NCBI GenBank assembly: GCA_965140445.1
Contig: OZ223236.1
Span: 2,562,010 to 2,626,009, forward strand
Length of the DNA: 64,000 nucleotides
Direction: 5' to 3'
Source: Candidatus Ozemobacteraceae bacterium
Lineage (GTDB): Bacteria > Muiribacteriota > Ozemobacteria > Ozemobacterales > Ozemobacteraceae
Shown here: piece after piece, positions 1 through 15,382 of the stretch
How positions within the stretch are numbered: position 1 is the stretch's first letter
Layout: every line of letters begins with the position of its first letter
Program-made: the position numbers and the translations under genes
Notes under the pieces: model-generated
Told to the model about the DNA's origin: nothing
Database searches by the model: none
What the model saw: the letters and a program-made list of their open reading frames with translations, nothing else

Positions 1-72
1 GTTGACGTAACTATGCGTTTCGGCGCTTCAGCAGCTGGACACAAAGCAATCGTTAAAAACGCAGGTTCTTAA
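1..72 (+). CDS. 3' end of a phage structural gene (partial; possibly major capsid protein)
   Basis: Open frame from window edge ending ...VDVTMRFGASAAGHKAIVKNAGS then TAA at 70-72; position immediately upstream of head/tail genes. Function is inference only. Confidence 0.4.
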   Translation, partial: VDVTMRFGASAAGHKAIVKNAGS

Positions 73-87
73 TTACTAACAATACCT

Positions 88-108
88 GGGGCTAACTAGC
101 TTAGCCCC
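88..108 (+). promoter_or_regulatory. GC-rich stem-loop (GGGGCTAA-ctagc-TTAGCCCC) downstream of capsid-module gene, no U-tract
   Basis: Perfect 8-bp inverted repeat with 5-nt loop read directly from sequence; lacks a trailing T-run so more likely an mRNA-stabilising or partial-termination hairpin than a full terminator. Confidence 0.3.
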
Positions 109-153
109 TGTAAATCAGTAAATCAGTAAATCATTTATAGGAGATTTTCAACA

Positions 154-504
154 ATGAAAAACAAAATTTTCGAAAAGGCTGACACGTTCAAACATACAGC
201 TACAGCAGATATAACAAGCGATGACGTTATAGTTTTGAACTCTACAACAGCTCGAATTGCTATTGCATCAAAAGATGCAGTAGCTGGAGAGACTCTGAAT
301 GTGGATTCAAGAGGAGTTTTTGAGCTCGCGAAAGGCACAGCATCAGACGTTTTTGCGTTTGGCGAAACATTCAAAATCAGCGGAAATACAGTTGTAAAGG
401 CAGCTGGCACTGGAATTCCTGACGTCGTTGTAGCTAACGGTTATGTAGCTTCAGACGATGATGCAGACGGCAACACAACTGTTTTAGTGAAGCTAAACTC
501 GTAA
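154..504 (+). CDS. hypothetical phage head-associated protein
   Basis: 116-aa ORF, ATG preceded by AGGAG (139-143); lies between capsid gene end and neck/tail genes. Confidence 0.6.
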   Translation: MKNKIFEKADTFKHTATADITSDDVIVLNSTTARIAIASKDAVAGETLNVDSRGVFELAKGTASDVFAFGETFKISGNTVVKAAGTGIPDVVVANGYVASDDDADGNTTVLVKLNS

Positions 505-519
505 AGGCAGGTTCAAATA

Positions 520-852
520 GTGAGTTTGATAGACATTATTGAAAGCGACTTAGATCAAATCTGGACAACCGGTAATTTTGCAAGCCCTTGTTTAGGCGGT
601 TTTGTCAACGACACAGCAGCTGTCAAACTCACTATTTCTTACGGTACTATCACGAACTACGAAGGCTACGCAGCTAAAACAGCAACTATCACTATACGCG
701 AAAAAGAATATCAAAATCTAAAAGTTACAGACACTATCACTGTAACTTCAAAAAATGAAAAATGGATCGTTCAAACTATTGCTCAAGCAGACTCTCACTT
801 AACTACAGCGATTTGTGTAAATGACATTCGATACTTGCCAAGGAATTTTTAA
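520..852 (+). CDS. hypothetical phage head-tail protein (GTG start)
   Basis: 110-aa ORF with GTG start, weak SD-like AAGGCAGG upstream; tightly packed with flanking + strand genes. Confidence 0.5.
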   Translation: MSLIDIIESDLDQIWTTGNFASPCLGGFVNDTAAVKLTISYGTITNYEGYAAKTATITIREKEYQNLKVTDTITVTSKNEKWIVQTIAQADSHLTTAICVNDIRYLPRNF

Positions 853-854
853 AA

Positions 855-1547
855 ATGTTCACAGTGAAAATTGACTCAATCTATGAAGCTGATTTCATCA
901 GCGGACTATTTGCGCAAGCGTTTAAAAATCCTGGAAAAACTAAGGATCTCGCGCAAGCGTTTGAAAATGCAAAAATCAGAGCGATCGGAAAAACAGCAGC
1001 TAGTTTAAGAAAACGAATTGTAGAAGCGTTCAAAGAAAACACTTTCGGCTGGAAACATACTGAATACAGCAATTGGCTTGGAATCGGTCAACGAGTTGAA
1101 ACAGACGATTTGCACGAATCGAACCAGCCTAAAAAAGCTTTTACAAGCTCAGGAAAGCGAAAGAAGGCGGGCTATAGTCTCAAAACAATGATTAATCCGC
1201 CGAAATCTGGAAATCCAGTGGGGGGCAAATATCCGAAACTCATGCGTTATTTGCTCAATGATGACAATTTCACCGTCGGTTTAGTTCCTGAAATCTCCGG
1301 AAAGCGCTGGGCTGCTCTGTTTCAACTATTTCAAAGCGGCGGAATTATCACGCCAACTGGAAAAAATGGAGCTCCTGGAACTCCAGCCAGAACGCGGCGC
1401 TATCTAGCGTCAATCGGTATTTACACTAAGCGAAATCACGCATTTAAAATGCCTGCTCGTCCTGTCATTGCTCTTATTCAGCAACGACACGATCCAAACG
1501 CGCTGTATAAAGCAAATTTCTGGGAAAAACTCAGGAGCGGTAAATGA
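855..1547 (+). CDS. hypothetical phage protein (head-tail joining region)
   Basis: 230-aa ORF, ATG 3 bp after previous stop, AAGGA upstream; no recognisable motif. Confidence 0.55.
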   Translation: MFTVKIDSIYEADFISGLFAQAFKNPGKTKDLAQAFENAKIRAIGKTAASLRKRIVEAFKENTFGWKHTEYSNWLGIGQRVETDDLHESNQPKKAFTSSGKRKKAGYSLKTMINPPKSGNPVGGKYPKLMRYLLNDDNFTVGLVPEISGKRWAALFQLFQSGGIITPTGKNGAPGTPARTRRYLASIGIYTKRNHAFKMPARPVIALIQQRHDPNALYKANFWEKLRSGK

Positions 1548-2029
1548 TGTCAAGTTTACAAGATTTACAGTTATTAATAGCTAAAGAAATAGTTACTGAT
1601 GAGACGTTGACAAACTATTGCCAAGAAAAATTTGGCAACGAAATCACAGTGTACATCGGTATTGATCAAGATGACTTACCGCGCGCTGGCGAAGTAAACC
1701 CCTGGGTCGGTTTAGCTGTACCACTTTATCAAACAGAATCTAATATTGAAGATTTAGTTAGTAGTTTCGTTCTCGACTCAGCAGTCTATTGCAAAGACGA
1801 ATCAGAGCCGTTTTCTGACGCTGACTATTCAAACATAAAAATAATTCAGGGCAATAAAACAATCGAAGAGCTTAGCGATTTGGTTTTTGCAGCAATTTTG
1901 AGAGCGGTTTCACGCTCAGCAACTCAGCTAGTAATGAGCTATCACTCACAGACTGAAACGAGTCTAGGCGCTCTTATTAAGCCCCATTTTGCTGCTACAA
2001 GAACTTGGACGATCGGTATAACAAACTAA
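1544..2029 (+). CDS. hypothetical phage protein (neck/tail completion candidate)
   Basis: 161-aa ORF, ATGA overlap with upstream gene, AGGAG 6 nt upstream of ATG. Confidence 0.55.
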   Translation: MMSSLQDLQLLIAKEIVTDETLTNYCQEKFGNEITVYIGIDQDDLPRAGEVNPWVGLAVPLYQTESNIEDLVSSFVLDSAVYCKDESEPFSDADYSNIKIIQGNKTIEELSDLVFAAILRAVSRSATQLVMSYHSQTETSLGALIKPHFAATRTWTIGITN

Positions 2030-2056
2030 CTAACTAACTAAGGAGAATTTATAAAA

Positions 2057-3082
2057 ATGATAGTTCCGACAACTGCGCAAACAGGGAAAAACAGCAAGGT
2101 TTTCATGTCAATAAATGATGGTATTGCTGTTTCAAATTTTCCGCTTTCTTTACAAGCAACATACGAGCTAAACGGTGAGACACTCACAAATCAAATGTAT
2201 TTGCTCGGAGAGACAAAAATGATCAACGACAGACCTGCTATAAGCACGTCTGTTACTGTGAATGGAGTGATTGACGGCATAGATATAATGCCAACTTCTA
2301 ACGCTGACGAAATAGCGACGACAGCGGGAACAATTCAAGTGAACGGGCAGCCTGTAGCTGTTGCAGCTAGTTTAGTTTCAATAACTCGTGCTGCTACAGA
2401 CGAAGCAGCATGGGTGGTGCTTTGTGTTTCAAACAGTGGCACAGTATCAGCAATTAAAGGTACTGATACAACAAGCTCAGCTGGAAAAGCTGGACTAGTA
2501 GCAAGTTTTGGCACTGGAGCCGGTGAAATTCCGTTTATTTCAGTTGATAGCGTGTTATTAGCTGTTCTCAAGCTCGACGATGTATCAGCTGTTATTTCGT
2601 ATTCTGAAATAGATCAATCTTATAGAGAATATAGCGCTATTTCATTTTATTTATATCCGTCAATCGGCGCTGTCAAAGTTTCTACAAGTCTACTGAAATG
2701 CCACACCGGCGAAGTTGCTAGAACGCCGCTGTTTAGCGGCAAATACATTGACGACAGTCTACTAGCTGAGATTGGAGACGCGAAAAGCTGGAGTTTAACG
2801 CCGAACTCTACGACTGTAGCAGTTGAAACGCTGGCAGGCGGAAAGTCTCAAACAACTATTAGCAGCTGGAGCTTTGCATTTAATCAGCTTTTCACGAACG
2901 GACTAGCGTTAGCAGCAATTATGAAGCGCCAGGGCTACGCATGCGTCAAAATGCAGCTTAGCAGCGGCGAGTATTTCAGATTTTCAGGATCGCTGGCAGG
3001 CGGAATTAAAGCAGATCCAGGCTCTTATGTTGAGCAAGATATATCTGGCAGCTGCGACACGCCATACTACAGCGGACAATAA
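2057..3082 (+). CDS. putative major tail protein
   Basis: 341-aa ORF with AGGAG SD, immediately upstream of chaperone/frameshift gene and tape measure gene (conserved siphovirus order); followed by a hairpin + T-run. Assignment by synteny only. Confidence 0.5.
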   Translation: MIVPTTAQTGKNSKVFMSINDGIAVSNFPLSLQATYELNGETLTNQMYLLGETKMINDRPAISTSVTVNGVIDGIDIMPTSNADEIATTAGTIQVNGQPVAVAASLVSITRAATDEAAWVVLCVSNSGTVSAIKGTDTTSSAGKAGLVASFGTGAGEIPFISVDSVLLAVLKLDDVSAVISYSEIDQSYREYSAISFYLYPSIGAVKVSTSLLKCHTGEVARTPLFSGKYIDDSLLAEIGDAKSWSLTPNSTTVAVETLAGGKSQTTISSWSFAFNQLFTNGLALAAIMKRQGYACVKMQLSSGEYFRFSGSLAGGIKADPGSYVEQDISGSCDTPYYSGQ

Positions 3083-3089
3083 GCAACAC

Positions 3090-3111
3090 AGGGGGCTGTT
3101 TGTCCCCTTTT
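3090..3111 (+). terminator. candidate intrinsic terminator after major tail gene
   Basis: 7-bp stem AGGGGGC/GTCCCCT (one G-U) with loop tgttt followed by TTTT. Confidence 0.4.
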
Positions 3112-3148
3112 AAACTTTTCTTAGAAATATCAGGAGGCAAAAAAAATC

Positions 3149-3529
3149 ATGGCTAGAAAAATTAAAAAAACAGCTAAAACACTTGTAGCACTATCAGCTG
3201 ACGACATTTTAAAACGCTGCAAACGAAAAACAAAAACAGTAGAAGTACCAGCACTTGGAGAAGATTTTGCAGTTAGCATTTTAGCACCGAATCCGCATGA
3301 ACTCTACGAGCTACGATCTGAAGCGCAAGAACAAAATTTAAACGACAAAGATTTTATTGAAAACTTATTTAAAAAATCTCTGAACGGCTGGACTGATGAG
3401 CAGTTAGAAGAGCTGAAAGAGCTAGACGGTTTTAAGTATGACAGAATCTTAGCGGCTTGTATTCCGCATCTAATGCCATTTGCGGCGGCTTTATCAGCTG
3501 AAAATATGGAGAAGCAAAAAAAAAGCTAG
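3149..3529 (+). CDS. tail assembly chaperone (gpG-like short form)
   Basis: 126-aa acidic ORF with AGGAGG SD directly upstream of tape measure gene; ends in the slippery run A_AAA_AAA (3517-3523) just before its TAG. Confidence 0.6.
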   Translation: MARKIKKTAKTLVALSADDILKRCKRKTKTVEVPALGEDFAVSILAPNPHELYELRSEAQEQNLNDKDFIENLFKKSLNGWTDEQLEELKELDGFKYDRILAACIPHLMPFAAALSAENMEKQKKS

Positions 3530-3666
3530 CTACAAATCCGGATCTTAGAGCAATTGTAGCTACTGCAATAAACGAGAGCATCAGTATTAACAGTGTTATT
3601 GAAAGAGGAGCTGATGATTTAGCGCTGAGAATAGCACTACGAAAACTAGAAAACGAAACATCTTAA
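3517..3666 (+). other. -1 programmed frameshift site (A_AAA_AAA at 3517-3523) and -1 frame extension to TAA 3664-3666 (gpGT-like long form)
   Basis: I translated the -1 frame from 3523 by hand: KLATNPDLRAIVATAINESISINSVIERGADDLALRIALRKLENETS, no stop until 3664-3666, ending 20 bp before the tape measure start. Confidence 0.55.
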
Positions 3667-3685
3667 AGAAAGGACTAGAGCGACA

Positions 3686-5254
3686 ATGGCAAGCAGCAAT
3701 ATAAATATAAAGCTCAAAGCTATAGATGAGTATAGCGGCGTCTTGACCGGGCTAAACCAGGGTTTAGAGCTCGTTGGCAAAGGATTTAATTTTATTAAAG
3801 CAACAGCCAGCGTTGCCTGGGACGCGATAAGCTACGGCACTAAAGCCGCTCTGGATCTAGCTAAAGTTGGTGGAGCTTTTCAAGAACAGCGTAATCAGTT
3901 TGAAAACCTGGCGAAGAGTTACAAAGTGAATGGTCAATCTATTATTGATACTGTTAAAGGTACTGCTCTAAACACTATTACAGAGTTTGATAGCATCAGC
4001 ATAGCTACAAAAGCTCTAGCAGCTGGTTTAAAAGGCAAAGATTTAGAGGACTCTCTAAGCTATGTGAAACGCTGGACAGAAGCTACAGGTCAAGATTTTC
4101 GCGCTGTTTCAGAAAGTGTTTTTACAAGCTTAGCAAGCGGACGTTTTAGCATTTTAAGGCAAATGGGTCTAGTAATTGAAAATGGAGCAAAACTAAATCA
4201 AGTTGTTGCTGCAATGAGCGCCGGTTTAAAAAAATTTGGTGATTCAGGCTTCAACGCAGGCGACAAACTCGCAAGTATGGCAGCTAGTCAAGACGATTTC
4301 TGGAGAAAAATTGGACAAGGAGTCAACTCGTCAAAAGAATTTCAGGACGTTTTAACTAGACTCTCTGACAATGCACTAGCTTTCGTGAAAAATTTTGATC
4401 CATTGCCCGTAACTTTGTTTGTAGACGAAGTTATAAGCGGAGCAAAAAACATTTATAACATTTTTAAAGAAACTTTTCCGGGTGTCTCAAAACTGCTCGA
4501 CACAATGTTTGTTAATCCGATTGAGGGCGTTAAAGATTTCGCTAAAGTCGGAGTTGACTCTTTCTATGCAATTTATAGAACAGCTGCTGATGTTACAAAC
4601 AGCATTTTAGAAACATTTAAAACACTAAACAGCGGAAATGTTCTGTCAGATTTAGCAAGCGGAACAATTCAACTATTAAGTTTCATCGGCTCTGCAATTT
4701 CACAACTAATAGAATCTGCTGTTGACTTGGCAGCTGATGCAATAGCACGAATTTTAAATAATCTCGGTGATTTCTTGAAACAGAGCCCAAAAATCAGCGA
4801 GTGGCTGGGCATTGACGCTAGTGTTTTTGATTTTTCAGGCTCAGCAAATCAGCTCAAAACATCAGTAGCAGCAATGACGGGCGCTTTTAAACTTGGTTTT
4901 GATGATTTGTCAAAACGATCTGATGCACTATTTAGCAATCTAAACGGCGGTTTTGATGACATGAAATCAGATTTGAGCGAAATAGACAAAGCGCATGTCA
5001 AAACGTTGTCTAGTCTCGACAGCATGAGCAAAAGCTATTCAAAAGCAAACAACGAAGCTGAAAAAATGGCAGAAACAATTAAAAATGTACCTAGCTATTC
5101 AAAAATAAAAGTTGAGCTAGCTGACGGCTCTGTTAAAGAGATTGAGGACGGATTGAAATATATTAAAGCGCCGCTTGTAAATCTTAAAGCTGAACTTGAT
5201 TTGAACGAACTCAAAGACATTGACAAAAAAAATCAGAAGCAAGATCACTACTGA
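3686..5254 (+). CDS. tail tape measure protein
   Basis: 522-aa ORF, Ala/Leu/Lys-rich helical composition, placed directly after the chaperone/frameshift pair; SD AAAGAAAGGA upstream. Confidence 0.6.
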   Translation: MASSNINIKLKAIDEYSGVLTGLNQGLELVGKGFNFIKATASVAWDAISYGTKAALDLAKVGGAFQEQRNQFENLAKSYKVNGQSIIDTVKGTALNTITEFDSISIATKALAAGLKGKDLEDSLSYVKRWTEATGQDFRAVSESVFTSLASGRFSILRQMGLVIENGAKLNQVVAAMSAGLKKFGDSGFNAGDKLASMAASQDDFWRKIGQGVNSSKEFQDVLTRLSDNALAFVKNFDPLPVTLFVDEVISGAKNIYNIFKETFPGVSKLLDTMFVNPIEGVKDFAKVGVDSFYAIYRTAADVTNSILETFKTLNSGNVLSDLASGTIQLLSFIGSAISQLIESAVDLAADAIARILNNLGDFLKQSPKISEWLGIDASVFDFSGSANQLKTSVAAMTGAFKLGFDDLSKRSDALFSNLNGGFDDMKSDLSEIDKAHVKTLSSLDSMSKSYSKANNEAEKMAETIKNVPSYSKIKVELADGSVKEIEDGLKYIKAPLVNLKAELDLNELKDIDKKNQKQDHY

Positions 5255-5411
5255 TGTCAAAGTCAATCTTGATTCAAACAAGCTTGACGCTAAAAAATCT
5301 GAAGAAGGCTTAACAGCTCAACAAGTTTTAGATGCACTAACTAAACTCGTAATGGACTATGCAGCCTCTATAGCTTCTAGTTCCGGCTTTCCAGCTGTTG
5401 TGAGCGCATAA
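5220..5411 (+). CDS. possible C-terminal continuation of tape measure protein in +1 frame (or separate small ORF)
   Basis: Frame opens at 5205 and overlaps the tape measure 3' end; an A8 homopolymer (5225-5232) lies in the overlap, and removing one A fuses the two frames. Confidence 0.3.
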   Translation: MTKKIRSKITTDVKVNLDSNKLDAKKSEEGLTAQQVLDALTKLVMDYAASIASSSGFPAVVSA

Positions 5412-5427
5412 AAAAGGATTTTTAATA

Positions 5428-5805
5428 ATGATTCAAATTAAACCGACGACCAGTTGCTTGTTAAATCATCAAGAGTTTAGTTTAACTCTTCCAGGTTCAT
5501 TGTCTTTCAATGTTCCCAGGGCTAGTAAATCAGTAAGAACGCTGGACGGCGGAGTTGCAATAACTCTTTGGAAGAAAAACAAAGCTGGAGCGATAACAGA
5601 AAAAAGTTTTTTGTTAAATCAAAGTCAATACAAAATCTTAGAGCAAATTATATATCACGAAACAGTTTTTGAGTGGTTGGTTTTCAGTGGTGAGAGCAGG
5701 TTTTTATGTTCATTAGATTTTACAAAAGATGAACAAATAACATTCGACAATAATCCTGATTTTAAAAATGTTTCAGTGCAATTTTTTGTTATACAGGAGC
5801 TTTAA
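5428..5805 (+). CDS. hypothetical phage tail protein
   Basis: 125-aa ORF with AAGGAT SD, first gene after tape measure. Confidence 0.5.
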   Translation: MIQIKPTTSCLLNHQEFSLTLPGSLSFNVPRASKSVRTLDGGVAITLWKKNKAGAITEKSFLLNQSQYKILEQIIYHETVFEWLVFSGESRFLCSLDFTKDEQITFDNNPDFKNVSVQFFVIQEL

Positions 5806-5807
5806 AA

Positions 5808-6935
5808 ATGATTCAAGGCGGAACAAGCGCGGCTGGTAGAGCAGCTAGAACCGGGTATACACAGTATTACATACCCTGTTTGCTTTTCGCGTCTTCTAAA
5901 TCTGTCTTAGAAAAAATGCAGAATACAAAGCGCGTATCTGTTTATAACGCGTATGTAAAGATTGAAGATTTTGACGGCGGTTTGCAGCTTTTGAACAGTT
6001 GCAGCTATTTTCAAATTCAGAAATATGCTGGAGCCGGAATTGACAACGCTACTCTAACAATTCAAAGAGCGGAAATATGGGGGATTTGGCAAGATACATA
6101 CAAAAACTTGTTAAAGCCGTCAAAGCGCTCTGTGACCATCTTTGCTGGAATTCCGGGAAAAGAAGAACAAGTTTTTTGTGGTCGAATAACCGGCTATCAA
6201 GAGAGCCAGGGCAGCGGCGGTGGGGCTATAAATCTGAATTTAAGTGATCATCGTTTGACTGTTCAGAGAACTACTACTACTCAAAAATACACTGAGCACA
6301 CTAGATTTTATGAAATTTCAAGAATTGCTGACGAAATTTTTAAAAATGCTGGTCAAGTTTTGCAAATAGCAGACACAGACACAGTATCAACGTGGACGCC
6401 AACTGGCAACGGGCTAGAGTCAGCAAATCAAGCGCTTTCAGGAGAACCGGAATGGACTGGAGGCGCTCTAGTAACTATAAATTCAGGCAATGTTTTAACA
6501 GTAACGAGTGATGATTTATTAATAATAAATGATTCTCTGATCAGTAATGCTTCAAGAAATTTTCACGATTCAAGCGCTTTTAACACTGTTAATGTGAAAG
6601 GTTTAGTCGATGATGTTCTGACTACTGATATTGTTCAAGATGAAACAGACGCAAAAGATCGCGGAATAATAACATATAGCGCAATCGTCGGATCTGAGCA
6701 CGATAATATAGAGCAAGCAAAATTACAAGCCCAGAGGCTCATAGCACGAGCATTGAGCGGCGTTTTCAGATGTAATACTGTTTATTTGCCGTATTTGGAA
6801 CCAGGGCAAATCGTAAAAATACAGAGTAATCGTTTTAACATTGCTCTATCGACTGCAAAAATAACTAGTGTTATGCAGCAATATCAAGTCGGAAATTGTA
6901 GCACGAGCATTAGCGGACTGGAGCTATTAGAATGA
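5808..6935 (+). CDS. hypothetical phage tail/baseplate protein
   Basis: 375-aa ORF, CAGGAGC SD, 2-bp gap from upstream gene. Confidence 0.55.
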   Translation: MIQGGTSAAGRAARTGYTQYYIPCLLFASSKSVLEKMQNTKRVSVYNAYVKIEDFDGGLQLLNSCSYFQIQKYAGAGIDNATLTIQRAEIWGIWQDTYKNLLKPSKRSVTIFAGIPGKEEQVFCGRITGYQESQGSGGGAINLNLSDHRLTVQRTTTTQKYTEHTRFYEISRIADEIFKNAGQVLQIADTDTVSTWTPTGNGLESANQALSGEPEWTGGALVTINSGNVLTVTSDDLLIINDSLISNASRNFHDSSAFNTVNVKGLVDDVLTTDIVQDETDAKDRGIITYSAIVGSEHDNIEQAKLQAQRLIARALSGVFRCNTVYLPYLEPGQIVKIQSNRFNIALSTAKITSVMQQYQVGNCSTSISGLELLE

Positions 6936-7900
6936 TACTGCACGCTATTATAACAGCTATAGACGTACCAGAAAAAGGCTGGTATCAAGCTCTAACGAAT
7001 TTCGGCACAACTGTCAATGCAGTTCGACTGAAAGGTACTGATAAAAAGTTTGCTAACGGGCAAATAGTTAGTGTTATTCAAAACGGCTCAGAGTTTGGTT
7101 TGACAGAGTTTGGCAAAACATCAGTGTTAAAAATTCCGGCTCTTTTGCGTAGCGGTTTAGCAGAACAATACAAAGCTGATACAGTTTTAGCATATATTGC
7201 AACGCTAGCAAACAATGTTAAAAAACTCTATCACGTCGCAAAAGTTGAAAATGTTGCTTTAGACGCTCTAACTGTTTTGAATGAATTTACAAAACAGGTG
7301 CAATTGTTGAGTTGCAGCGAAGTTAGTGCGCTAGATTTTAAAATTAATGACAGAGTTTTAATAGAAATCGGAAAACCGTCAAAAATAATAGGTTGGTGGA
7401 ACTGTGTCCCAGCAGCTGTTGACACAGGTTATGCAATAATAGCTATTGGTCGCAGAGCATACAGTCCTGATGTTTTTATACACAAAATCAGTTTTAAAGA
7501 CGGTGAATACAGCGTCAGCAATGAAATTCGATTTGAAATGAATAATAGAGCTCTGACGTATGCAAACATTTTTACTCTAAAGAGCTTAGACGCTGACGAG
7601 TATTTCTATTCAAGAGTAATAGCAACCGGAGCGCTAGACGTGCCAGCAGAGCTCCACTGGCTAAAATGGCGCAAGAATTTGACGAGCGTTGAAGAAATTA
7701 CAGAATCAGAATATCTAGCAAAAGAAGCTATACAGCCAGTCTACACTATGACAACTGATAACAAAATTTGGTGGACTTCAGACAATTGCTATATATCAGA
7801 CACAGAAACAAGCTCTAAAACTCTTGTTTTCCCGTCTGGCGAGCCTTTCCAGGAGCAGTTTTTTCCGATTCAAGGCAAAATTTACAAGGAGTTTATTTAG
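6932..7900 (+). CDS. hypothetical phage tail/baseplate protein
   Basis: 322-aa ORF, ATGA overlap with previous gene (translational coupling). Confidence 0.55.
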   Translation: MILHAIITAIDVPEKGWYQALTNFGTTVNAVRLKGTDKKFANGQIVSVIQNGSEFGLTEFGKTSVLKIPALLRSGLAEQYKADTVLAYIATLANNVKKLYHVAKVENVALDALTVLNEFTKQVQLLSCSEVSALDFKINDRVLIEIGKPSKIIGWWNCVPAAVDTGYAIIAIGRRAYSPDVFIHKISFKDGEYSVSNEIRFEMNNRALTYANIFTLKSLDADEYFYSRVIATGALDVPAELHWLKWRKNLTSVEEITESEYLAKEAIQPVYTMTTDNKIWWTSDNCYISDTETSSKTLVFPSGEPFQEQFFPIQGKIYKEFI

Positions 7901-8313
7901 TGAGCAGTTCTGTACCATTCAAAATTAGTATTAATCCTGATCCTGCTTTGATAATTTTTGCCGGGAAAAAGACAGACTCTGTTAATTTCGAAATTACTAA
8001 CGCAGATACTAGAAATATAACTAGTCTGCTCATTAGAGCTGTTAGAGCTGATTTGATGCCGCTGGGACTGATAAATAACGAAAATAGAGAAACAAAACTA
8101 GCAGCCGGGGAGTCAATTGTTTTTAATCAGCGACTCGAAGCAAGAGCAACAGATTTTGACGAGTGGACAAGCTGCAATGACTGGAGCAGCGGTTTAGACC
8201 TGGGCGAATTTTCTCCAGGTCAAAGCAAAACTTTTCAAATCAGATTAAATCTACTCGACGAGCAAGAGACAGAGCTAAAACAGGGCTTTTCGATCATGCT
8301 CGCAATAATCTAA
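7900..8313 (+). CDS. hypothetical phage protein (GTG start)
   Basis: 137-aa ORF, GTG start with AAGGAG 8 nt upstream. Confidence 0.5.
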   Translation: MSSSVPFKISINPDPALIIFAGKKTDSVNFEITNADTRNITSLLIRAVRADLMPLGLINNENRETKLAAGESIVFNQRLEARATDFDEWTSCNDWSSGLDLGEFSPGQSKTFQIRLNLLDEQETELKQGFSIMLAII

Positions 8314-8326
8314 GGAGGCGCTGAAA

Positions 8327-8674
8327 ATGGCAGATACAACAAATTTAGACGCGATTATAGACGCTGGAGTCAGCGCTATAGCAACAGTTGAGCTGTGGAC
8401 TGAAATCCGCGATTTACTGAAAGCAGTTTCAGGTGAAACAGGCTCTGTAACGCTAGCTGGCAGAAATACAGGCGTTGAAGTTAGTTTGACGACAACGTTT
8501 GATGCTACTACAGACTATGATGTTTTCTTTTATATCGAGAAAGCTGCTGCTGCAAAGACAGGCAGCATAGGTGAAGTGACTATTACAAAAAATTCAGGTA
8601 GTGCGTTTACTGTGAAAAATTCAGGATCTGACTCACTATCTACTCTGAATTACAAAGTTATGAAGAGAGCTTAA
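8327..8674 (+). CDS. hypothetical phage protein
   Basis: 115-aa ORF, AAGGAGG SD. Confidence 0.5.
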   Translation: MADTTNLDAIIDAGVSAIATVELWTEIRDLLKAVSGETGSVTLAGRNTGVEVSLTTTFDATTDYDVFFYIEKAAAAKTGSIGEVTITKNSGSAFTVKNSGSDSLSTLNYKVMKRA

Positions 8675-8676
8675 CT

Positions 8677-9471
8677 ATGAAAAAACTATTATTAATAATA
8701 CTTATAATGCTTTCTAGCAGATGTTTTGCAATAGACAACAACATTGTTTTTGTGAACCACTTTGACGGTTTAGTTAGTAATCAAGACTTTACTTGTGATT
8801 ACATGCCCTTTTATACGTTCTATGCAACTCAAAATGCAAACAATGCAGGTATACCGCGCCTTGACGGAGCTGGCAAATGGGGACAGAGCTATAATGCAGG
8901 TCAAAGCAGTAGATACTCGTATTGCTATAATTATACAGACTTTAACGTCAACACAGTGCTTGAAAATGACTTCACTATCGACTTTTGGCTATATCTTACA
9001 AGCGCTGACGCTGGAATTGACACAGGCTATGTTTTAAGAGCTGGCAGCTTTTCAACTTATGTATTGATGCAAGACTACACAGTAAAAATGAGCTTTACTG
9101 ACGGCTCAGGCAGTGGCTACGTAAACTATCAAGTTGATGATTTTATTCACTACGCGTTTGTGCGAAGCGGAAACACTTTAAAAGCGTATAGAAACGGAAT
9201 TTTGCAAGCTACTAGCGCAACAACTGCACCGGCTTTGAATATTTCAAACATCAGATTGGGGCGCGAGTTCATAAGCGGCGATGCTTTCACAAATGTAAAT
9301 TTTTTAATGGACGAACTGAGAGTTAGCAGAAAAGCAGAATGGTTAGAAAATTTCACGCCTCCAGCTGCTCCTTATTCTTACGCGCCGATTTATGCAAACA
9401 TCAGACTTGGAACAAGCGGAGAAATAAAACTAGGCTCAGATGGGCTGATAAAGCTGGATTGGAGGCAATAA
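8677..9471 (+). CDS. secreted LamG/concanavalin A-like lectin domain protein (tail fibre-associated)
   Basis: 264 aa; N-terminus MKKLLLIILIMLSSRCFA looks like a cleavable signal peptide; body resembles a LamG-type jelly-roll (FTIDFWLYL...YAFVRSGNTLKAYRNG...IRLGRE). Domain call by eye. Confidence 0.5.
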   Translation: MKKLLLIILIMLSSRCFAIDNNIVFVNHFDGLVSNQDFTCDYMPFYTFYATQNANNAGIPRLDGAGKWGQSYNAGQSSRYSYCYNYTDFNVNTVLENDFTIDFWLYLTSADAGIDTGYVLRAGSFSTYVLMQDYTVKMSFTDGSGSGYVNYQVDDFIHYAFVRSGNTLKAYRNGILQATSATTAPALNISNIRLGREFISGDAFTNVNFLMDELRVSRKAEWLENFTPPAAPYSYAPIYANIRLGTSGEIKLGSDGLIKLDWRQ

Positions 9472-9473
9472 AA

Positions 9474-10967
9474 ATGAATGAATCTCCTGAAAATATTTTT
9501 CTTACTGAAGACGATATAGAAAAAACTAGCACTAGTCTTGTTATTGCTGACAATAAAATTGTTGTAAACGGCATTGACGGCGGCTTCTATGATGATTTTT
9601 CGAGCGGAGACTTGAGCAGATATATTAGTTCTAACGCTGTGATAGAGGGCGGCAATGTTAGATTTACAGATAGCACAAGTAACATAGTTTATAACAACTA
9701 TATTGTTTCAGATATTATTCCGATCACTGGTACTCAATACTACGGAATTCAAGCGGGAGTTTACGAAGTCAAAGCAAGACGAATTGCTATTGATACTGTA
9801 AATAATAACTATTTATATTTTACAACTGATTTGATGACGCCGGTGCGCTATAACAACTCCAGCGGTTTTTATATGTATTACACAAAAGATGTTGTTTATA
9901 TATACGCTTTCGGCGGAAGCACTACAGCTAGTTTTCAGTATACTACTGCTCAAATTCCGATCGGCGCTGAAATAACATTTAGAATAGTTGACGAGTCTCC
10001 GCTCGGCAGCTCGTTACAGAATGCTACTAGAATGTATTTTAAAATTAACAACGAAGAATGGATAAACACAGGAATCGGCGGAATAAATAGAGGCTACGTC
10101 GGTTTCGGCTTGTTATATGCTTACTCTAGCGTCAACAGTTTTGAATTTTTGAACTTCGCAATTTATGGCTATCCTGAAAAAATCACTCTAACGCTCAATA
10201 AAACTAGCTCTCTAGTAGCTGATTTACCAGCTAAGCTTAAAACACTTGATTCTATTTCTTTAACAACAGAAGACAGCAAACAAGGTTCTATAGCTCTATC
10301 GTTGCAGAAAAAAGACGCAAGACTAGCAGAATGGTCGGATCTAGACGACAAAATAGCTGAGTTTTCGACTGTTGCTGACGTGAAAAATGGCGGCTCTTTT
10401 ATTGCTCCAGTTCAAGAGCCAGCTCCGGAGCGTGAATTTATCATCAAGCTTGAATATTCAAACGGCGGAGTCAGCGGCTATAACACTATTAATTTGCCGC
10501 TGCAAATAAGCTGGACAAGCGATATTGAAGCGCCGCTCAGTCCGTCAGCTAGCGAAGTTAACCAATTTGGAGAAGCTGGCGCAGTTTTAAAAGCTGCTGA
10601 TGCTTTGTTAGAAGATGTTTACGGCGCACAAATAGAAGTAGATATTAACAATAACGGCTATTTGCCGCTTTCTGAGCGCAGCATACTAGAAACTGACAAC
10701 AACCATTTAATTTTGCGTTCAACGACTGGCGAGAAACAGCGAGCAGGTGAGCACAACAGCTTAGTCTATGCGCTCACAGGGCTAAATATTGACGACACTA
10801 TACGAATTAGATCGCGTTTTGTTGACGAAGTTGGCAACGCGTCAGCATTCAAAAATTCAGGATTAATAACTATAAAAGGCACTCTCTACGCTCAAGTGCC
10901 AGTAAAAAATTTCAAAACAAGCTGGAAAACAGCAACAAAATGGGGGGCGAAATGGACAACAAGCTAA
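9474..10967 (+). CDS. tail fibre-like protein
   Basis: ORF-track ORF starts at 9339 but the in-frame ATG at 9474 has GGAGG 9 nt upstream and follows the previous stop; 497 aa, Asn/Thr/Ser/Gly-rich beta-type composition. Confidence 0.5.
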   Translation: MNESPENIFLTEDDIEKTSTSLVIADNKIVVNGIDGGFYDDFSSGDLSRYISSNAVIEGGNVRFTDSTSNIVYNNYIVSDIIPITGTQYYGIQAGVYEVKARRIAIDTVNNNYLYFTTDLMTPVRYNNSSGFYMYYTKDVVYIYAFGGSTTASFQYTTAQIPIGAEITFRIVDESPLGSSLQNATRMYFKINNEEWINTGIGGINRGYVGFGLLYAYSSVNSFEFLNFAIYGYPEKITLTLNKTSSLVADLPAKLKTLDSISLTTEDSKQGSIALSLQKKDARLAEWSDLDDKIAEFSTVADVKNGGSFIAPVQEPAPEREFIIKLEYSNGGVSGYNTINLPLQISWTSDIEAPLSPSASEVNQFGEAGAVLKAADALLEDVYGAQIEVDINNNGYLPLSERSILETDNNHLILRSTTGEKQRAGEHNSLVYALTGLNIDDTIRIRSRFVDEVGNASAFKNSGLITIKGTLYAQVPVKNFKTSWKTATKWGAKWTTS

Positions 10968-11269
10968 TAGTCGGTGAGTCACACGATCCAATTTTAGAAC
11001 TAACTGACGAAAATAACGAAATAATGGATCTAGAAGGCGCAAGCGTAAAGTATGGCATGAAAAAAAACAAAAATAGTGCGTATGCTCACGCGTCTATGCC
11101 AATTTCTGGTACTGCGAGCCTGGGTCAAGCTTCAGTAGAAGTTTCAGCAGCAGTAACAGCTGAAATAGAGCTCGGGCGCTATATAGAAGAATTTGAAATA
11201 ACATTAGCAAACGGAAAAACAAAGAAATTTCAGCGCTCAATATCTGTCGAATGGGCTGTCAATACATAA
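10940..11269 (+). CDS. hypothetical phage protein
   Basis: 109-aa ORF overlapping the 3' end of the upstream gene; alternative ATG at 10952. Confidence 0.45.
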   Translation: MGGEMDNKLIVGESHDPILELTDENNEIMDLEGASVKYGMKKNKNSAYAHASMPISGTASLGQASVEVSAAVTAEIELGRYIEEFEITLANGKTKKFQRSISVEWAVNT

Positions 11270-11281
11270 AAGGAGACAAAC

Positions 11282-13048
11282 ATGAAAAAATTTTTATTAT
11301 TAATAATGATACTGATAACTAGTATAGCTAGTGCTCAGAGCTATGATTCAGCAGAAGATATAGGGCTAAGTCCTTATGATGTTGCTGAATATATGCTCAG
11401 AAACGGCAATATAGCAAGTGGTACTACAGCTCCAACAGTTACAGCTGGTATACCTGACGGTGCGCTATATTGGCAGACACAGCCTAGCATTGTGTTGTGG
11501 GTTAAGCTCGATGGAAGCTGGGAGCCTGGAGCCGGGGCAGTTGATCCGATCGCTATTCATTTAGCTGAGCTCGGAGAGAAGAGCTACAACAGTCTCGACG
11601 ATAAACCGCTTATTCCTGAAAATTTGGCTGATTTGACAGAAAAGAGCTATAACACACTAACAGACAAGCCAACATCTGCCAGCTGGAATTTAGCAGAGCT
11701 TAACGAAAAAAGTTTTGCAAGTTTAGCAAGTAAACCAACGACTTTAAACGGCTACGGCATTATAGACGGAGTGCTAGACTCAGTTTTCAGCTCTCATGTT
11801 TCAGAGTTTAACTCTCACGTTAATACAGTTGTTGACGCGCATTCAGCCAATCAGAGAATATCACAAACTCTGACGATCGGCGCAGATAACGACTCGAATG
11901 CGTTTTTGGGCTACGCAGGAGCTGGCACAGTAGCAGTCGGTGATTATTTAATGGTACCTTATACTGCTACAGCTCCGACGACTATAAATAGCGGCTCAGC
12001 GCTGTTTTGGTGCGACTCAAACACGAATCAAGTAAAAATATACAACGGAAAAACAGGAGAGTGGCTGATTATCGGCAGCATTTATAGTGTTGACGCAGAT
12101 TTTGGTATTAAAAATGAGTCATATCTAAATTTATATTCAAACGATAATGTAGGAGAAAACATCAGAGCTAGACTAAGATGTATTGGAAGCGCGACGGGCA
12201 GCGGATATGGCGGAGATTTTGTATTAGAAACTAGAAATGGATCGAATGTTTGGAATTCTAACGCGTTTACTCTGAAAGAAAATGGAAACATTTTAATAAA
12301 TACAGCAACAGACGACAGCTACTACAAACTACAGCTCGCAGGAAATGCAAAATTTTATTCAACTTCGGGCGGTTCAATTGGTGAAGATGATCCGGCTGTT
12401 GCTAATCTTTTTACTAATACACCGAATGGCGGCGGTGGCTTATTCAATGTTTTGCAATTGCATCTTGATAGAGCAGCAAACAACGACGGAGCAGCTTTAA
12501 CGTTTGCAGCTAACGATGCAGGAGGCAGCAGGCGCACTCTAGCGCTAATTGGTGCAGCTCCCAGTGACACAACAGACGGATCGCCAGACGGTTACATGGT
12601 TTTTTACACTTGCGCAGGCACTATGCTAGAGAGAATGAGGCTGACTAAAAGCGGTAATCTTTTAATAAATACAGCAACAGACGATGGAATTAACAAACTA
12701 CAAGTTAATGGAAGCGTTAAATTTGACGCTGGTTCATCAGTTTGTCGATTCAAAGAAATAACTTTAGCTGACAATCAAACACTTGATTTAAGAAGTTTTT
12801 TCGGAAATGCAAACTATATGTTCGGAAATTTAAAAATAGTTGCTATTGAAAATTCAGGCAGTGCGGCTGATGTTTTTTTGACTGGATCATATAATACTGT
12901 AAATTTGTATTCAGTTGCTGGCTCAGTCGTGAACACTTCAACAGACGGCTATATTTGCGTATATCCAGCCGGAAGCGGTGAATACACTCTCGAAAACAAG
13001 CTCGGTACTTCGACTGTAATCTCACTATTTTATCAGGGGATACAATAA
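11282..13048 (+). CDS. tail fibre-like repeat protein with N-terminal signal peptide
   Basis: 588 aa; AAAGGAGA SD; N-terminus MKKFLLLIMILITSIASA-QS; three tandem ~20-aa repeats (LAELGEKSYNSLDDKP-like, aa 94-152) and a duplicated ~30-aa module (NILINTATDD..KLQ..G..KF). Confidence 0.55.
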   Translation: MKKFLLLIMILITSIASAQSYDSAEDIGLSPYDVAEYMLRNGNIASGTTAPTVTAGIPDGALYWQTQPSIVLWVKLDGSWEPGAGAVDPIAIHLAELGEKSYNSLDDKPLIPENLADLTEKSYNTLTDKPTSASWNLAELNEKSFASLASKPTTLNGYGIIDGVLDSVFSSHVSEFNSHVNTVVDAHSANQRISQTLTIGADNDSNAFLGYAGAGTVAVGDYLMVPYTATAPTTINSGSALFWCDSNTNQVKIYNGKTGEWLIIGSIYSVDADFGIKNESYLNLYSNDNVGENIRARLRCIGSATGSGYGGDFVLETRNGSNVWNSNAFTLKENGNILINTATDDSYYKLQLAGNAKFYSTSGGSIGEDDPAVANLFTNTPNGGGGLFNVLQLHLDRAANNDGAALTFAANDAGGSRRTLALIGAAPSDTTDGSPDGYMVFYTCAGTMLERMRLTKSGNLLINTATDDGINKLQVNGSVKFDAGSSVCRFKEITLADNQTLDLRSFFGNANYMFGNLKIVAIENSGSAADVFLTGSYNTVNLYSVAGSVVNTSTDGYICVYPAGSGEYTLENKLGTSTVISLFYQGIQ

Positions 13049-13049
13049 C

Positions 13050-13526
13050 ATGAAGAAATCATTAATATTTTTACTAATAACAATTTCTATTTTGCTTGTG
13101 ACTGTTTCTGTATCAGCTCAAAACGCTAGCTATTCAGCTAGCTATGATATTGAGACTGTTGTTAATAATAAAGTTGAGCAAATCAAAATAAACTTTCTTG
13201 ATGCAGTATTGAGCACTATTTCTGTCTTTCTGTTGTTTGTAGTAGCTCAGATTAAAGCATATTTTGCTCAAGCAACGAAAGAAAAACAGCACAAGCGCGG
13301 CTCAAGCGTCGTCGAAGATAGTTTGTTTTCTGCAATTTTTGAAGCTGATAGCACGCTTGAAAAAGTTTTAGCAAGTAAAGCTGAGCGCGTTCGTGTATCT
13401 GTAATTTGGGCTTCTATAGCTAAGACAAGACTAAAAGAATTAGCAGGATTTAAAAAAGCGGACTTAAATAATTGGATTTCAACACAACAAACAATCATTT
13501 TGAGCAAAAAAGCTCAAGGAGTCTAA
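13050..13526 (+). CDS. membrane protein with signal peptide (lysis-associated or moron; function unknown)
   Basis: 158 aa; N-terminus MKKSLIFLLITISILLVTVSVSA-QN plus one further hydrophobic helix (VLSTISVFLLFVVAQIKAYFA). Confidence 0.45.
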   Translation: MKKSLIFLLITISILLVTVSVSAQNASYSASYDIETVVNNKVEQIKINFLDAVLSTISVFLLFVVAQIKAYFAQATKEKQHKRGSSVVEDSLFSAIFEADSTLEKVLASKAERVRVSVIWASIAKTRLKELAGFKKADLNNWISTQQTIILSKKAQGV

Positions 13527-13630
13527 AAAATGAGATACCATATTTCGCCCGATTTATTATTTGTATATTTAGTTCTTGTGATTTTGTGCTTTCATGTTGC
13601 TGTTCCAGTGTTTTTCAGGAGCGTGAAATT

Positions 13631-14191: not shown

Positions 14192-14200
14192 GAGATTATT

Positions 14201-14500
14201 ATGAGCGACTTAGCAGATCTCAACGAAAAACGAATAGATAGACTAGAAAACAGTGTTATTGAAATGAAAAAAGAGCTGAAAGTAGCTATTAAAGAAGGGT
14301 TCAAAGAATGCAGAGAAATTGCTCCGCTGACTTGTCCAAACTCGAAAAAATTAAGCTTGTCTAGTGCAATTATGCTCTGTAGCGTGCTGTGCGGGGTGTT
14401 TTTATTTCTCGCAAAAATTGGAGTTTTAGAAAACATTTCAATAAAAAAACAAACTAAAACTAGTATTAGCAGTGACAGACAAGAAGGAGCTAATAAATGA
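14201..14500 (+). CDS. putative holin (single transmembrane helix)
   Basis: 99 aa, AGGAG SD, charged coiled N-terminus then TM helix LSLSSAIMLCSVLCGVFLFLAKIGVL; overlaps the amidase start by 4 bp. Confidence 0.4.
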   Translation: MSDLADLNEKRIDRLENSVIEMKKELKVAIKEGFKECREIAPLTCPNSKKLSLSSAIMLCSVLCGVFLFLAKIGVLENISIKKQTKTSISSDRQEGANK

Positions 14501-15021
14501 AAATAGCACTAGTCGTCGGACACTCTAAAAAAGCAAAAGGGGCTCGAAACAGAGCGTCAAAAATGACTGAATTTGACTATAATGACGAGCTCGTTAAAAA
14601 AATAGCTGTTATGCTCAATAAAAGGGGCATAGACAACGTAATTGTCTATCGAGATAGCTATAGTGCTCTACCGGGAAAAATTAACGCTAAGAAGCCCACT
14701 TTTATTTTGAGCTTTCACGCGAACAGTTGCAAAAATGATGCTGTGTCTGGCTCAGAAGTTCTTTACTACAAAGATAGTAAAAAAGGAAAATTGCTTGCTC
14801 AAGTTATGCTCAATGCAATTGTAAAGACTCTTGAACTTAGAAATAGAGGCATAAAGCCGCGCTCAGAGAGCGATCGTGGCGGATATTTGCTAAAAAATAC
14901 TCATGCAGCTTGTGTCATACTAGAGCCTTTTTTTATTAATAATAATGCTGATTGCGAGACAGCTACGAATAAACTCGACGAGCTCGCTGTATCTATAGCT
15001 CTAGCTATTGAAAATATATGA
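14497..15021 (+). CDS. N-acetylmuramoyl-L-alanine amidase (Amidase_3 family) endolysin
   Basis: 174 aa with family hallmarks ALVVGHS...SFHANS...EVLYY...ILEPFF; AGGAG SD; located at the end of the phage late operon. Confidence 0.85.
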   Translation: MKIALVVGHSKKAKGARNRASKMTEFDYNDELVKKIAVMLNKRGIDNVIVYRDSYSALPGKINAKKPTFILSFHANSCKNDAVSGSEVLYYKDSKKGKLLAQVMLNAIVKTLELRNRGIKPRSESDRGGYLLKNTHAACVILEPFFINNNADCETATNKLDELAVSIALAIENI

Positions 15022-15096
15022 AAAAATTGTAGTAGATGCAAAACTAGCTAAACATTGCATGCTATCAAAATAAAGTTTTTTTGCCTCCTCCCTTTA

Positions 15097-15121
15097 CTCC
15101 CAGAGCTCTGGGAGTTTTTTT
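15097..15121 (+). terminator. intrinsic terminator after endolysin
   Basis: Perfect 18-bp palindrome CTCCCAGAGCTCTGGGAG followed by TTTTTTT. Confidence 0.6.
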
Positions 15122-15204
15122 ATTATTAATAATGATTAATTTCAAATTTCTTGAACAGCATAAACTATTTATATGACGATAAAAAATTTTTGGAGGTTTT
15201 TAAA

Positions 15205-15363
15205 ATGTTTGATACTACTAAATTGAGTGCTGAAGAGCTTATGAACTATAATCTAGCAAAAGAAATATCAAAAAGTCTATTAAAAGAGCTTGAAACAGAC
15301 GTAGAAACTGGCAGAATACAAGACTTGAGACTAGTTAGACTAGTAGACGAGCTGAAAAAATAA
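15205..15363 (+). CDS. small hypothetical protein (52 aa)
   Basis: ATG at 15205 with GGAGG 8 nt upstream; the track's 15151 start is a TTG extension. Charged helical peptide, followed by a strong terminator. Confidence 0.4.
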   Translation: MFDTTKLSAEELMNYNLAKEISKSLLKELETDVETGRIQDLRLVRLVDELKK

Positions 15364-15382
15364 AAAAGCCAGGAGAACAAGA

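What the first reader, a model, noticed from the sequence alone, without database searches (positions are those of the whole stretch)
3149..3666. Programmed -1 frameshift in the tail assembly chaperone gene
The 126-codon ORF upstream of the tape measure gene ends with the slippery heptamer A_AAA_AAA (3517-3523) two codons before its TAG. The -1 frame stays open for 47 more codons to TAA at 3664-3666, 20 bp before the tape measure start. This is the conserved G/GT arrangement of tailed phages. It anchors the tail-module annotation and predicts two products from one gene.
Basis: partly seen in the sequence, partly recalled or inferred. Interest (0 to 1): 0.5.

Follow-up and report, generated by a model that had tools for sequence, protein, structure and literature searches.

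The report
Phage tail chaperone G/GT frameshift site
This is a real but ordinary example of the programmed -1 frameshift that long-tailed phages use to make two tail-assembly chaperones from one gene, found in a prophage whose chaperone belongs to no named protein family.

Summary
ORF 3149..3529 (126 aa) ends two codons after an in-frame A_AAA_AAA heptamer (3517-3523, inside an A9 run at 3516-3524). The -1 frame is open from 3502 to 3666, contains no ATG, GTG or TTG, and ends 19 nt before the next gene.

- The upstream 341-aa protein has a tail-tube/Hcp fold.
- The downstream 522-aa protein is a tape measure; two homologues hit Pfam TMP_3.
- In 11 related tail modules, where G is only 28-34% identical, the extension peptide (..DPVL..A..IA....S...V..RGA.DLALRIA..) is conserved in the alternative frame.
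- Ten of the 11 lineages carry it in the -1 frame behind an in-frame canonical heptamer (A_AAA_AAA, A_AAA_AAC, A_AAA_AAG or G_GGA_AAG). None has a fused ORF.

This is a new member of a known kind.

Side findings:
- The A9 run could also allow RNA-polymerase slippage.
- One relative (L003) has the same A9 run but carries T in the +1 frame.
- The window's tape measure gene is itself broken at an A8 run (5225-5232), with its conserved C-terminus in the +1 frame.

The parts
2057..3082 (+). Major tail (tube) protein gene, 341 aa, immediately upstream of G
3149..3529 (+). Gene G: tail assembly chaperone, short form, 126 aa, 14.3 kDa. AGGAGG ribosome-binding site lies upstream.
3516..3524 (+). A9 run containing the in-frame slippery heptamer A_AAA_AAA (3517-3523); the recoding site
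   Evidence: At the equivalent position, homologues carry A_AAA_AAC (5 lineages), A_AAA_AAG (2), G_GGA_AAG (1) or an A9 run (L003).
3523..3666 (+). T segment: 47 codons in the -1 frame plus TAA. It is translated only as the C-terminal extension of G, giving GT of 172 aa and 19.3 kDa.
   Evidence: The frame has no ATG, GTG or TTG. The peptide KLATNPDLRAIVATAINESISINSVIERGADDLALRIALRKLENETS aligns with the alternative-frame peptides of all relatives, with invariant P, V, A, RGA, D, R and A columns. In the close pair L004/L010, 4 of 6 differences are synonymous third-position changes in the T frame.
3686..5254 (+). Tape measure protein gene, main ORF of 522 aa, starting 19 nt after the T stop
   Evidence: The N-terminal 40 aa are nearly identical to homologues of 544-1182 aa. 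Two of those homologues pass the Pfam TMP_3 gathering score.
5205..5411 (+). +1-frame segment that encodes the conserved C-terminus of the tape measure protein. It is separated from the main ORF by a frame break at the A8 run 5225-5232.
   Evidence: An HMM of four homologue C-termini ranks this segment first of 1786 six-frame segments (E 0.0037), aligned to its very end (..GFPAVVSA*). It stops 16 nt before the next ATG at 5428.

Best explanation
Window 1-15021 is the late (head-tail-lysis) arm of a siphovirus-type prophage. Gene G (3149..3529) encodes the abundant short tail assembly chaperone. On the A-run at 3516-3524, a minority of decoding events shift to the -1 frame. The most likely mechanism is tandem slippage of two tRNA-Lys on A_AAA_AAA (3517-3523). 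Translation then continues for 47 codons to TAA at 3664-3666 and yields GT (172 aa).

By analogy with lambda gpG/gpGT, the G part would coat the tape measure protein (3686..) and the T part would recruit the tube protein (2057..3082), fixing a high G:GT ratio.

What is shown here: the sequence architecture, the synteny, and the conservation of the T peptide and of slippery heptamers in relatives.

What is inferred: that the fusion protein is made, its ratio to G, the binding partners, and that the ribosome rather than RNA polymerase does the slipping. My confidence that GT is produced by recoding at this site is about 0.85-0.9. My confidence that ribosomal -1 frameshifting is the main route is about 0.6-0.65. 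The single confidence value given (0.7) is for the statement as a whole, including the ribosomal route.
For: - Architecture: an in-frame X_XXY_YYZ heptamer sits two codons before the stop. The -1 frame is open from 3502 to 3666 without any start codon and ends 19 nt before the TMP ATG. Without T, there would be a 156-nt unexplained gap in a tightly packed operon.
- Synteny: a tube-fold protein lies upstream and the TMP downstream.
- Comparison across 11 lineages: window, L002, L003, L004=L010=L015, L005, L006, L007=L009, L008=L016, L012, L013=L014 and L017. The T peptide is conserved at least as well as G. Ten lineages have it in the -1 frame with an in-frame canonical heptamer of differing sequence, 0-5 codons before the G stop. 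None has a fused ORF.
- Stimulators in relatives: three A_AAA_AAC relatives have hairpins 7-9 nt downstream with z-scores of -3 to -5, the usual geometry of -1 PRF stimulators.
- Selection: substitutions between L004 and L010 in T are mostly synonymous in the T frame.
- Assembly quality: 20 host genes in the window are full length despite more than 60 homopolymers of 7 or more bases, so the assembly is not riddled with homopolymer errors.
- Literature: -1 G-T frameshifting is described as widely conserved among long-tailed dsDNA phages despite low sequence similarity (PMC5009743). Efficiencies of 6-7% were measured for a TAC cluster (PMC3711429).
Against: - No significant sequence match of G or GT to any curated chaperone family or solved structure.
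- In the window, the downstream hairpin (3525-3566) starts 1-2 nt after the heptamer and is no better than shuffles (z about 0). No consensus structure is shared by the eight loci aligned.
- The site is a 9-A homopolymer, which is compatible with RNA polymerase slippage or a length miscall.
- The adjacent TMP gene has a frame break at another A run.
- No expression data of any kind are available.
Confidence: 0.7

Rival explanations
1. The same two products are made, but mainly through transcriptional slippage. RNA polymerase stutters on the A9 (template T9) run and produces a fraction of A10 mRNAs, in which G and T are in one frame. The resulting protein is identical to the -1 PRF product.
For: - The run is 9 A long (3516-3524). 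By established knowledge this is the length class at which bacterial RNA polymerases slip appreciably (Thermus dnaX A9, IS elements; reviewed in PMC5009743).
- The window lacks a convincing downstream stimulatory structure, unlike its A_AAA_AAC relatives.
- L003 has the same GAAAAAAAAAGC-type A9 run with T in the +1 frame. This needs A8 or A11 mRNA, or a +1/-2 ribosomal shift, and is most simply served by a polymerase that both adds and drops an A.
Against: - Nine other lineages have only 6-A stretches or G_GGA_AAG. These are too short for efficient polymerase slippage but are canonical ribosomal heptamers, some with spaced hairpins. Ribosomal -1 PRF is therefore the family's ancestral mechanism.
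- A_AAA_AAA is itself a perfect tandem-slippage site.
- L003 is a single metagenome contig whose A-run length is unverified. With A10 it would be a canonical A_AAA_AAG -1 site.
Confidence: 0.22
2. Assembly artefact. The true run is A10 and G-T is a single contiguous 173-codon ORF with no recoding. Alternatively the run is A8, which would put T in the +1 frame.
For: - Homopolymer length is the commonest assembly error.
- About 1.7 kb downstream, the TMP gene is broken at an A8 run where A7 would restore the conserved C-terminus. At least one A run in this module therefore has a suspect length or a real indel.
Against: - The observed A9 gives exactly the canonical -1 geometry seen in 9 other independently assembled lineages. 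Any other length gives a geometry seen in none (fused) or in only one (+1).
- Host genes across 49 kb show no homopolymer-associated breaks.
Confidence: 0.05
3. T is not fused to G. Either it is translated separately (reinitiation or a non-canonical start), or the open -1 frame is untranslated and occurs by chance.
For: - In L007 and L017 the T frame begins with an ATG overlapping the G stop (TAATG). A gene caller annotated a separate 45-aa gene in L017.
- By composition alone, a 54-codon open frame has p of about 0.02.
Against: - The window's T frame has no ATG, GTG or TTG and no ribosome-binding site. Most relatives also lack a start at the head of T.
- Peptide conservation starts right at the slip site, and an in-frame heptamer is kept in every -1 lineage, including L007 and L017.
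- The chance reading is excluded by amino-acid conservation of T across lineages whose G is only about 30% identical.
Confidence: 0.03

Closest known systems
Phage lambda gpG/gpGT (and the G/GT-type tail assembly chaperones of long-tailed phages; Levin 1993, Xu 2004, reviewed in PMC5009743)
   Same: - Gene order is tube protein, then G, then T, then tape measure.
- T lies in the -1 frame without its own start codon.
- The slippery heptamer sits a few codons before the G stop; relative L002 even uses lambda's G_GGA_AAG.
- Product sizes are similar (about 14 and 19 kDa).
   Different: - No detectable sequence similarity to lambda G/T or to any curated TAC family.
- The slip site here is an A9 homopolymer.
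- Binding partners and the G:GT ratio are untested.
PBSX XkdN / skin-element YqbN tail assembly chaperone (PDB 3klu)
   Same: - Small protein of similar size encoded just upstream of the tape measure gene. XkdN is named as the PBSX chaperone in bioRxiv 10.1101/2022.04.13.488263. That YqbN is its paralogue is from my own knowledge.
   Different: - Sequence identity is 10%.
- PBSX is a contractile-tail element, whereas no sheath gene is present here.
dnaX recoding sites: E. coli (A_AAA_AAG plus hairpin, ribosomal -1) and Thermus thermophilus (A9 run, transcriptional slippage)
   Same: - Lys-codon A-run slip sites that yield a short and a long product from one gene.
- Relatives L006 and L012 carry the exact E. 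coli heptamer A_AAA_AAG.
- The window and L003 carry an A9 run, as in Thermus dnaX.
   Different: - The protein and its function are unrelated.
- Here the shifted frame extends the product rather than truncating it.
- Which of the two mechanisms acts in the window is undetermined.

Membership tests
G/GT-type tail assembly chaperone (functional class of long-tailed phages) | Gene lies between the major tail/tube protein gene and the tape measure gene | tested here: met
   The upstream 341-aa protein has an Hcp/tail-tube fold. The downstream protein is homologous to TMPs that pass Pfam TMP_3. The same order is seen in all related loci.
G/GT-type tail assembly chaperone (functional class of long-tailed phages) | A second ORF overlaps the 3' end of G in another frame (usually -1), lacks its own start, and ends just before the tape measure gene | tested here: met
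   The -1 frame is open from 3502 to 3666, contains no ATG, GTG or TTG, and ends 19 nt before ATG 3686.
G/GT-type tail assembly chaperone (functional class of long-tailed phages) | In-frame slippery sequence X_XXY_YYZ within the overlap | tested here: met
   A_AAA_AAA at 3517-3523 is in register.
G/GT-type tail assembly chaperone (functional class of long-tailed phages) | The arrangement and the T peptide are conserved in diverged relatives | tested here: met
   Ten of 11 lineages have T in the -1 frame with a canonical heptamer. The T peptide aligns throughout. The exception is L003 (+1 frame).
G/GT-type tail assembly chaperone (functional class of long-tailed phages) | Both G and the GT fusion are synthesised, at a high G:GT ratio; G binds the tape measure and T binds the tube protein; neither is in the virion | not testable with these tools
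   This requires proteomics, reporter assays and interaction assays.
Curated chaperone sequence families (Pfam Phage_TAC_*, PHROG 344 and similar) | Significant HMM match | tested here: not met
   - Pfam: no hit for GT or for any of 10 G homologues at E<=1 apart from unrelated noise.
- PHROGs: phrog_344 'tail assembly chaperone' at E=0.018 for 1 of 6 members only.
- PDB sequence profiles: nothing relevant.
- tblastn against 50,697 phage records: no match.
XkdN/YqbN-like chaperone fold | Structural superposition with a solved member | tested here: inconclusive
   [not shown]
Transcriptional-slippage recoding sites | Homopolymer A/T run of about 9 or more at the frame junction | tested here: met
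   A9 at 3516-3524.
Transcriptional-slippage recoding sites | The long homopolymer is conserved among homologues, and the mRNA population is heterogeneous in run length | tested here: not met
   Only L003 shares an A9 run. Nine lineages have A6 or shorter runs, or G_GGA_AAG. mRNA heterogeneity is not testable here.

The most novel reading that the evidence does not exclude
In the A9-run members of this chaperone family (the window and L003), the long form may be made mainly by RNA-polymerase slippage rather than ribosomal frameshifting. This would explain how the same A9 tract serves a -1 geometry in one phage and a +1 geometry in another. The same slippage on the A8 run at 5225-5232 would then rescue full-length tape measure protein from the apparently broken gene. 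On this reading, the tail module depends on polymerase infidelity at two A runs.
Probability: 0.12. Interest if true: 0.55.

Novelty: new member of a known kind. Interest (0 to 1): 0.28.

Why it matters
It fixes the annotation of an otherwise unannotatable prophage tail module: tube protein, G/GT chaperone, then tape measure. It also defines a small chaperone family, found mostly in metagenomes, that current Pfam and PHROG models miss.

The family is a clean natural series of slip sites: A_AAA_AAA, A_AAA_AAC with a hairpin, A_AAA_AAG, G_GGA_AAG, and one +1 variant, all on one conserved protein scaffold. That series could be used to benchmark frameshift predictors.

Biologically it adds nothing unexpected to the well-known G/GT paradigm.

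Tried and rejected
- Word-indexed homologue search with the fused GT found only the protein itself. tblastn of GT and of the TMP against 50,697 phage genomes found nothing. megablast of the first 12 kb against phages found nothing.
- Three of the nine hits (P0004, P0008, P0009) are long repetitive proteins matched in short Lys-rich stretches. I discarded them.
- Pfam, PHROG and PDB sequence searches for chaperone membership were negative.
- hhalign of the G family against the ORF that follows the tube-protein homologue in Marinobacter phage PS3 showed no relationship.
- Rfam has no match in 3000-5600.
- RNAalifold found no consensus downstream structure across eight loci. The window's own hairpin is not better than shuffles, so I do not list it as a part.
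- Pairwise BLASTP of the +1-frame TMP tail against the L006 TMP was not significant. Only the profile of four C-termini found it.
- The suspicion that host ORF pairs around T8 22133-22140 and elsewhere were broken genes was rejected. They are separate, full-length genes.
- The source organism could not be identified. The exact-protein look-up, cluster look-up and GTDB-representative scan did not return the source genome, and the window has no tRNA.

Full report
**Observation**

- ORF 3149..3529 has 126 codons and is preceded by AGGAGG.
- It ends ...GAG AAG CAA AAA AAA AGC TAG. The heptamer A_AAA_AAA at 3517-3523 is in the X_XXY_YYZ register, and TAG (3527-3529) follows two codons later.
- A -1 slip leads into AAG CTA GCT... 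for 47 codons, to TAA at 3664-3666.
- The next gene starts at ATG 3686.

Three details add to the description.
- The A run is 9 bases long (3516-3524).
- The -1 frame is open only from 3502, so the overlap with G is short.
- The -1 frame has no ATG, GTG or TTG.

The bare pattern is only mildly improbable. By composition, a 54-codon open frame has p of about 0.02, and 6 of 854 off-frame stop-free runs inside the phage genes are that long. In-frame slippery heptamers near ORF ends are frequent in this A-rich DNA. The case therefore has to be made by context and comparison.

**Context**

Window 1-15021 is the late arm of a prophage, and host genes follow.
- Phage genes include a head decoration/cement protein (154..504), a Laminin_G_3 tail or baseplate protein (8677..9471) and an Amidase_3 endolysin (14497..15021).
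- The host genes include uridine kinase, a DXS-like protein, YchF, PheT and MscK.

Downstream neighbour. The 522-aa protein (3686..5254) shares a nearly invariant N-terminus (..INI.LKAID.YSG.LTGLNQGLELVGK..) with homologues of 544, 637, 1114 and 1182 aa. Their length differences are coiled-coil insertions. Two of these homologues pass the Pfam TMP_3 gathering threshold (E about 2e-22). It is a tape measure protein.

**Comparative test of the frameshift**

G is an orphan by word-indexed search. An exhaustive HMMER search found five genuine homologues, and the better conserved tube protein led to more loci.

I read the G-stop region in 11 distinct lineages:

| Lineage | Slip site | T frame |
|---|---|---|
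| window | A_AAA_AAA | -1 |
| L002 | G_GGA_AAG (lambda's own heptamer) | -1 |
| L004 = L010 = L015 | A_AAA_AAC | -1 |
| L005 | A_AAA_AAC | -1 |
| L006 | A_AAA_AAG | -1 |
| L007 = L009 | A_AAA_AAC | -1 |
| L008 = L016 | A_AAA_AAC | -1 |
| L012 | A_AAA_AAG | -1 |
| L013 = L014 | A_AAA_AAC | -1 |
| L017 | A_AAA_AAC | -1 |
| L003 | A9 run | +1 |

They show the following.
- In every lineage, a peptide homologous to the window's -1-frame extension is encoded in an alternative frame between G and the tape measure gene. The consensus is ..L..DPVL.A.V.IA...G.S...V..RGA.DLALRIA.., and the invariant columns are listed.
- In ten lineages that frame is -1, and an in-frame canonical heptamer lies 0-5 codons before the G stop.
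- No lineage has G and T fused.
- T is conserved at least as well as G (identity to the window's G is 28-34%).
- In the close pair L004/L010, 4 of 6 differences in T are synonymous third-position changes in the T frame.

This is the signature of a translated, recoded extension. A9 gives the family's standard geometry, A10 would give a fusion seen nowhere, and A8 would give the +1 geometry seen only in L003.

**Mechanism**

The simplest reading is tandem -1 slippage of two tRNA-Lys on A_AAA_AAA. G is 14.3 kDa and GT is 172 aa and 19.3 kDa.

In three A_AAA_AAC relatives there are hairpins 7-9 nt downstream with z-scores of -3.1 to -5.2. That is the usual position of -1 PRF stimulators. A difference between L004 and L010 in that stem keeps pairing.

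The window lacks an equivalent.
- Its only hairpin (3525-3566) begins 1-2 nt after the heptamer and is no better than shuffles.
- There is no consensus structure across the eight loci aligned.
- There is no Rfam match.

Because the window's site is an A9 homopolymer, RNA polymerase slippage to A10 would give an identical protein. That possibility cannot be separated from ribosomal frameshifting by sequence alone. I rate ribosomal -1 PRF as the main route at about 0.6-0.65, because nine relatives have runs too short for efficient polymerase slippage.

L003 keeps this rival alive. It has the same N-AAAAAAAAA-GC tract, but T is in the +1 frame. Either its contig lacks one A (A10 would create a perfect A_AAA_AAG -1 site) or it is a true +1/-2 or slippage-dependent variant.

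In L007 and L017 the T frame opens with an ATG overlapping the G stop (TAATG), so separate initiation is conceivable there. The heptamer is retained in both, and most lineages, including the window, have no start codon for T.

**Family membership**

Functionally and architecturally this is a G/GT tail assembly chaperone, the arrangement reviewed in PMC5009743. Frameshift efficiencies of 6-7% were measured for one such cluster (PMC3711429).

It is not a member of any curated chaperone sequence family that I could test.
- Pfam: none for 10 members.
- PHROGs: only phrog_344 at E=0.018 for one member.
- PDB sequence profiles: none.

**A second frame break**

The tape measure ORF stops 22 nt after an A8 run (5225-5232). 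The +1 frame then runs to TAA at 5409-5411, which is 16 nt before the next gene. That frame encodes ..KITTDVKVNLD...VLDALTKLVMDYAASIASSSGFPAVVSA*. This aligns with the extreme C-termini of the homologous tape measures, for example ..VFNALVNIITNGLVNKAVGEDVPLAVSA*. A profile of four homologue C-termini picks this segment as the best of 1786 six-frame segments (E 0.0037).

All homologues are in frame at this position. The window's gene therefore carries a lineage-specific +1-nt state: A8 where A7 would restore the frame. There are three possible causes.
- A genuine inactivating indel in a decaying prophage.
- A local assembly error.
- Least likely, a site rescued by slippage.

Twenty host genes in the window are intact despite many homopolymers, so the assembly is not generally error-prone.

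**Verdict**

It is a new, sequence-divergent member of a very well known kind of recoding system and is useful for annotation. A specialist would not be surprised. The A9/+1 variant and the broken tape measure gene are the only points that merit follow-up.

Noticed in passing
window 5205-5411 (A8 run 5225-5232): The tape measure gene is split. Its 522-aa ORF stops just after an A8 run, and the family's conserved C-terminal ~60 aa (..GFPAVVSA*) continue in the +1 frame up to 16 nt before the next gene. A7 would restore one 574-aa ORF. Homologues are all in frame here. The cause could be a real indel, an assembly error or slippage rescue; this is undecided.
   Followed up: partly
L003 7759-7911 (JGI 3300020045 Ga0206662_1001313): This relative has the same A9 tract at the G/T junction, but the conserved T peptide lies in the +1 frame. 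It is the only one of 11 lineages that is not -1. With A10 it would be a canonical A_AAA_AAG -1 site, so it is either a contig error or a true +1/-2 or transcriptional-slippage variant.
   Followed up: partly
L004 529-561, L007 498-529, L008 3482-3529: Relatives with the weaker heptamer A_AAA_AAC have strong hairpins 7-9 nt downstream (z -3.1 to -5.2 against shuffles). The hairpins are centred on the codons for the conserved D-D-P-V-L motif. The window, with its A9 run, has none. The pairing registers differ between lineages, so no covariation model could be built.
   Followed up: partly
L007 489-493; L017 2579-2583: In two lineages the G stop overlaps an ATG in the T frame (TAATG), and a gene caller annotated a separate 45-aa gene in L017. 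A free T peptide made by translational coupling may exist in these lineages alongside, or instead of, the fusion.
   Followed up: no
window 2057-3082: The tube protein is large (341 aa) for an Hcp-fold tail tube subunit. Only about 100-115 residues align to single-domain tube proteins. Among the hits is the 348-aa P74-26 gp93, so extra or duplicated domains are likely. It is far better conserved among relatives (about 50% identity) than G (about 30%).
   Followed up: partly
window 8677-9471 and 9339-10967: Two tail-region ORFs overlap by 133 nt as listed. The first carries a Laminin_G_3 domain. The true start of the second is probably further downstream. I did not examine this.
   Followed up: no
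window 14497-15829: The prophage's right end lies after the Amidase_3 endolysin (14497..15021), and host genes begin at 15829 (uridine kinase). No tRNA occurs anywhere in the window, and no attachment-site repeat was searched for.
   Followed up: no
window 15829-64000: The host genes include HydG-like radical SAM with a TM1266-like regulator, two ~975-aa HAMP adenylate cyclases, a HAMP-SpoIIE phosphatase, a GAF-GGDEF protein and an N-methyl pilin-like protein. These suggest an anaerobe with a 5.2-Mb replicon of about 39% GC. The organism could not be named, and the genome was not returned by the GTDB-representative scan.
   Followed up: partly
L007 (MWCR01000046.1) and L009 (UPXM01011672.1): Identical G/T junction DNA occurs in a 1.9-kb contig binned as 'Parcubacteria group bacterium ADurb.Bin192' and in an activated-sludge metagenome contig. 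The short Parcubacteria-bin contig is probably phage DNA mis-binned into that genome.
   Followed up: no
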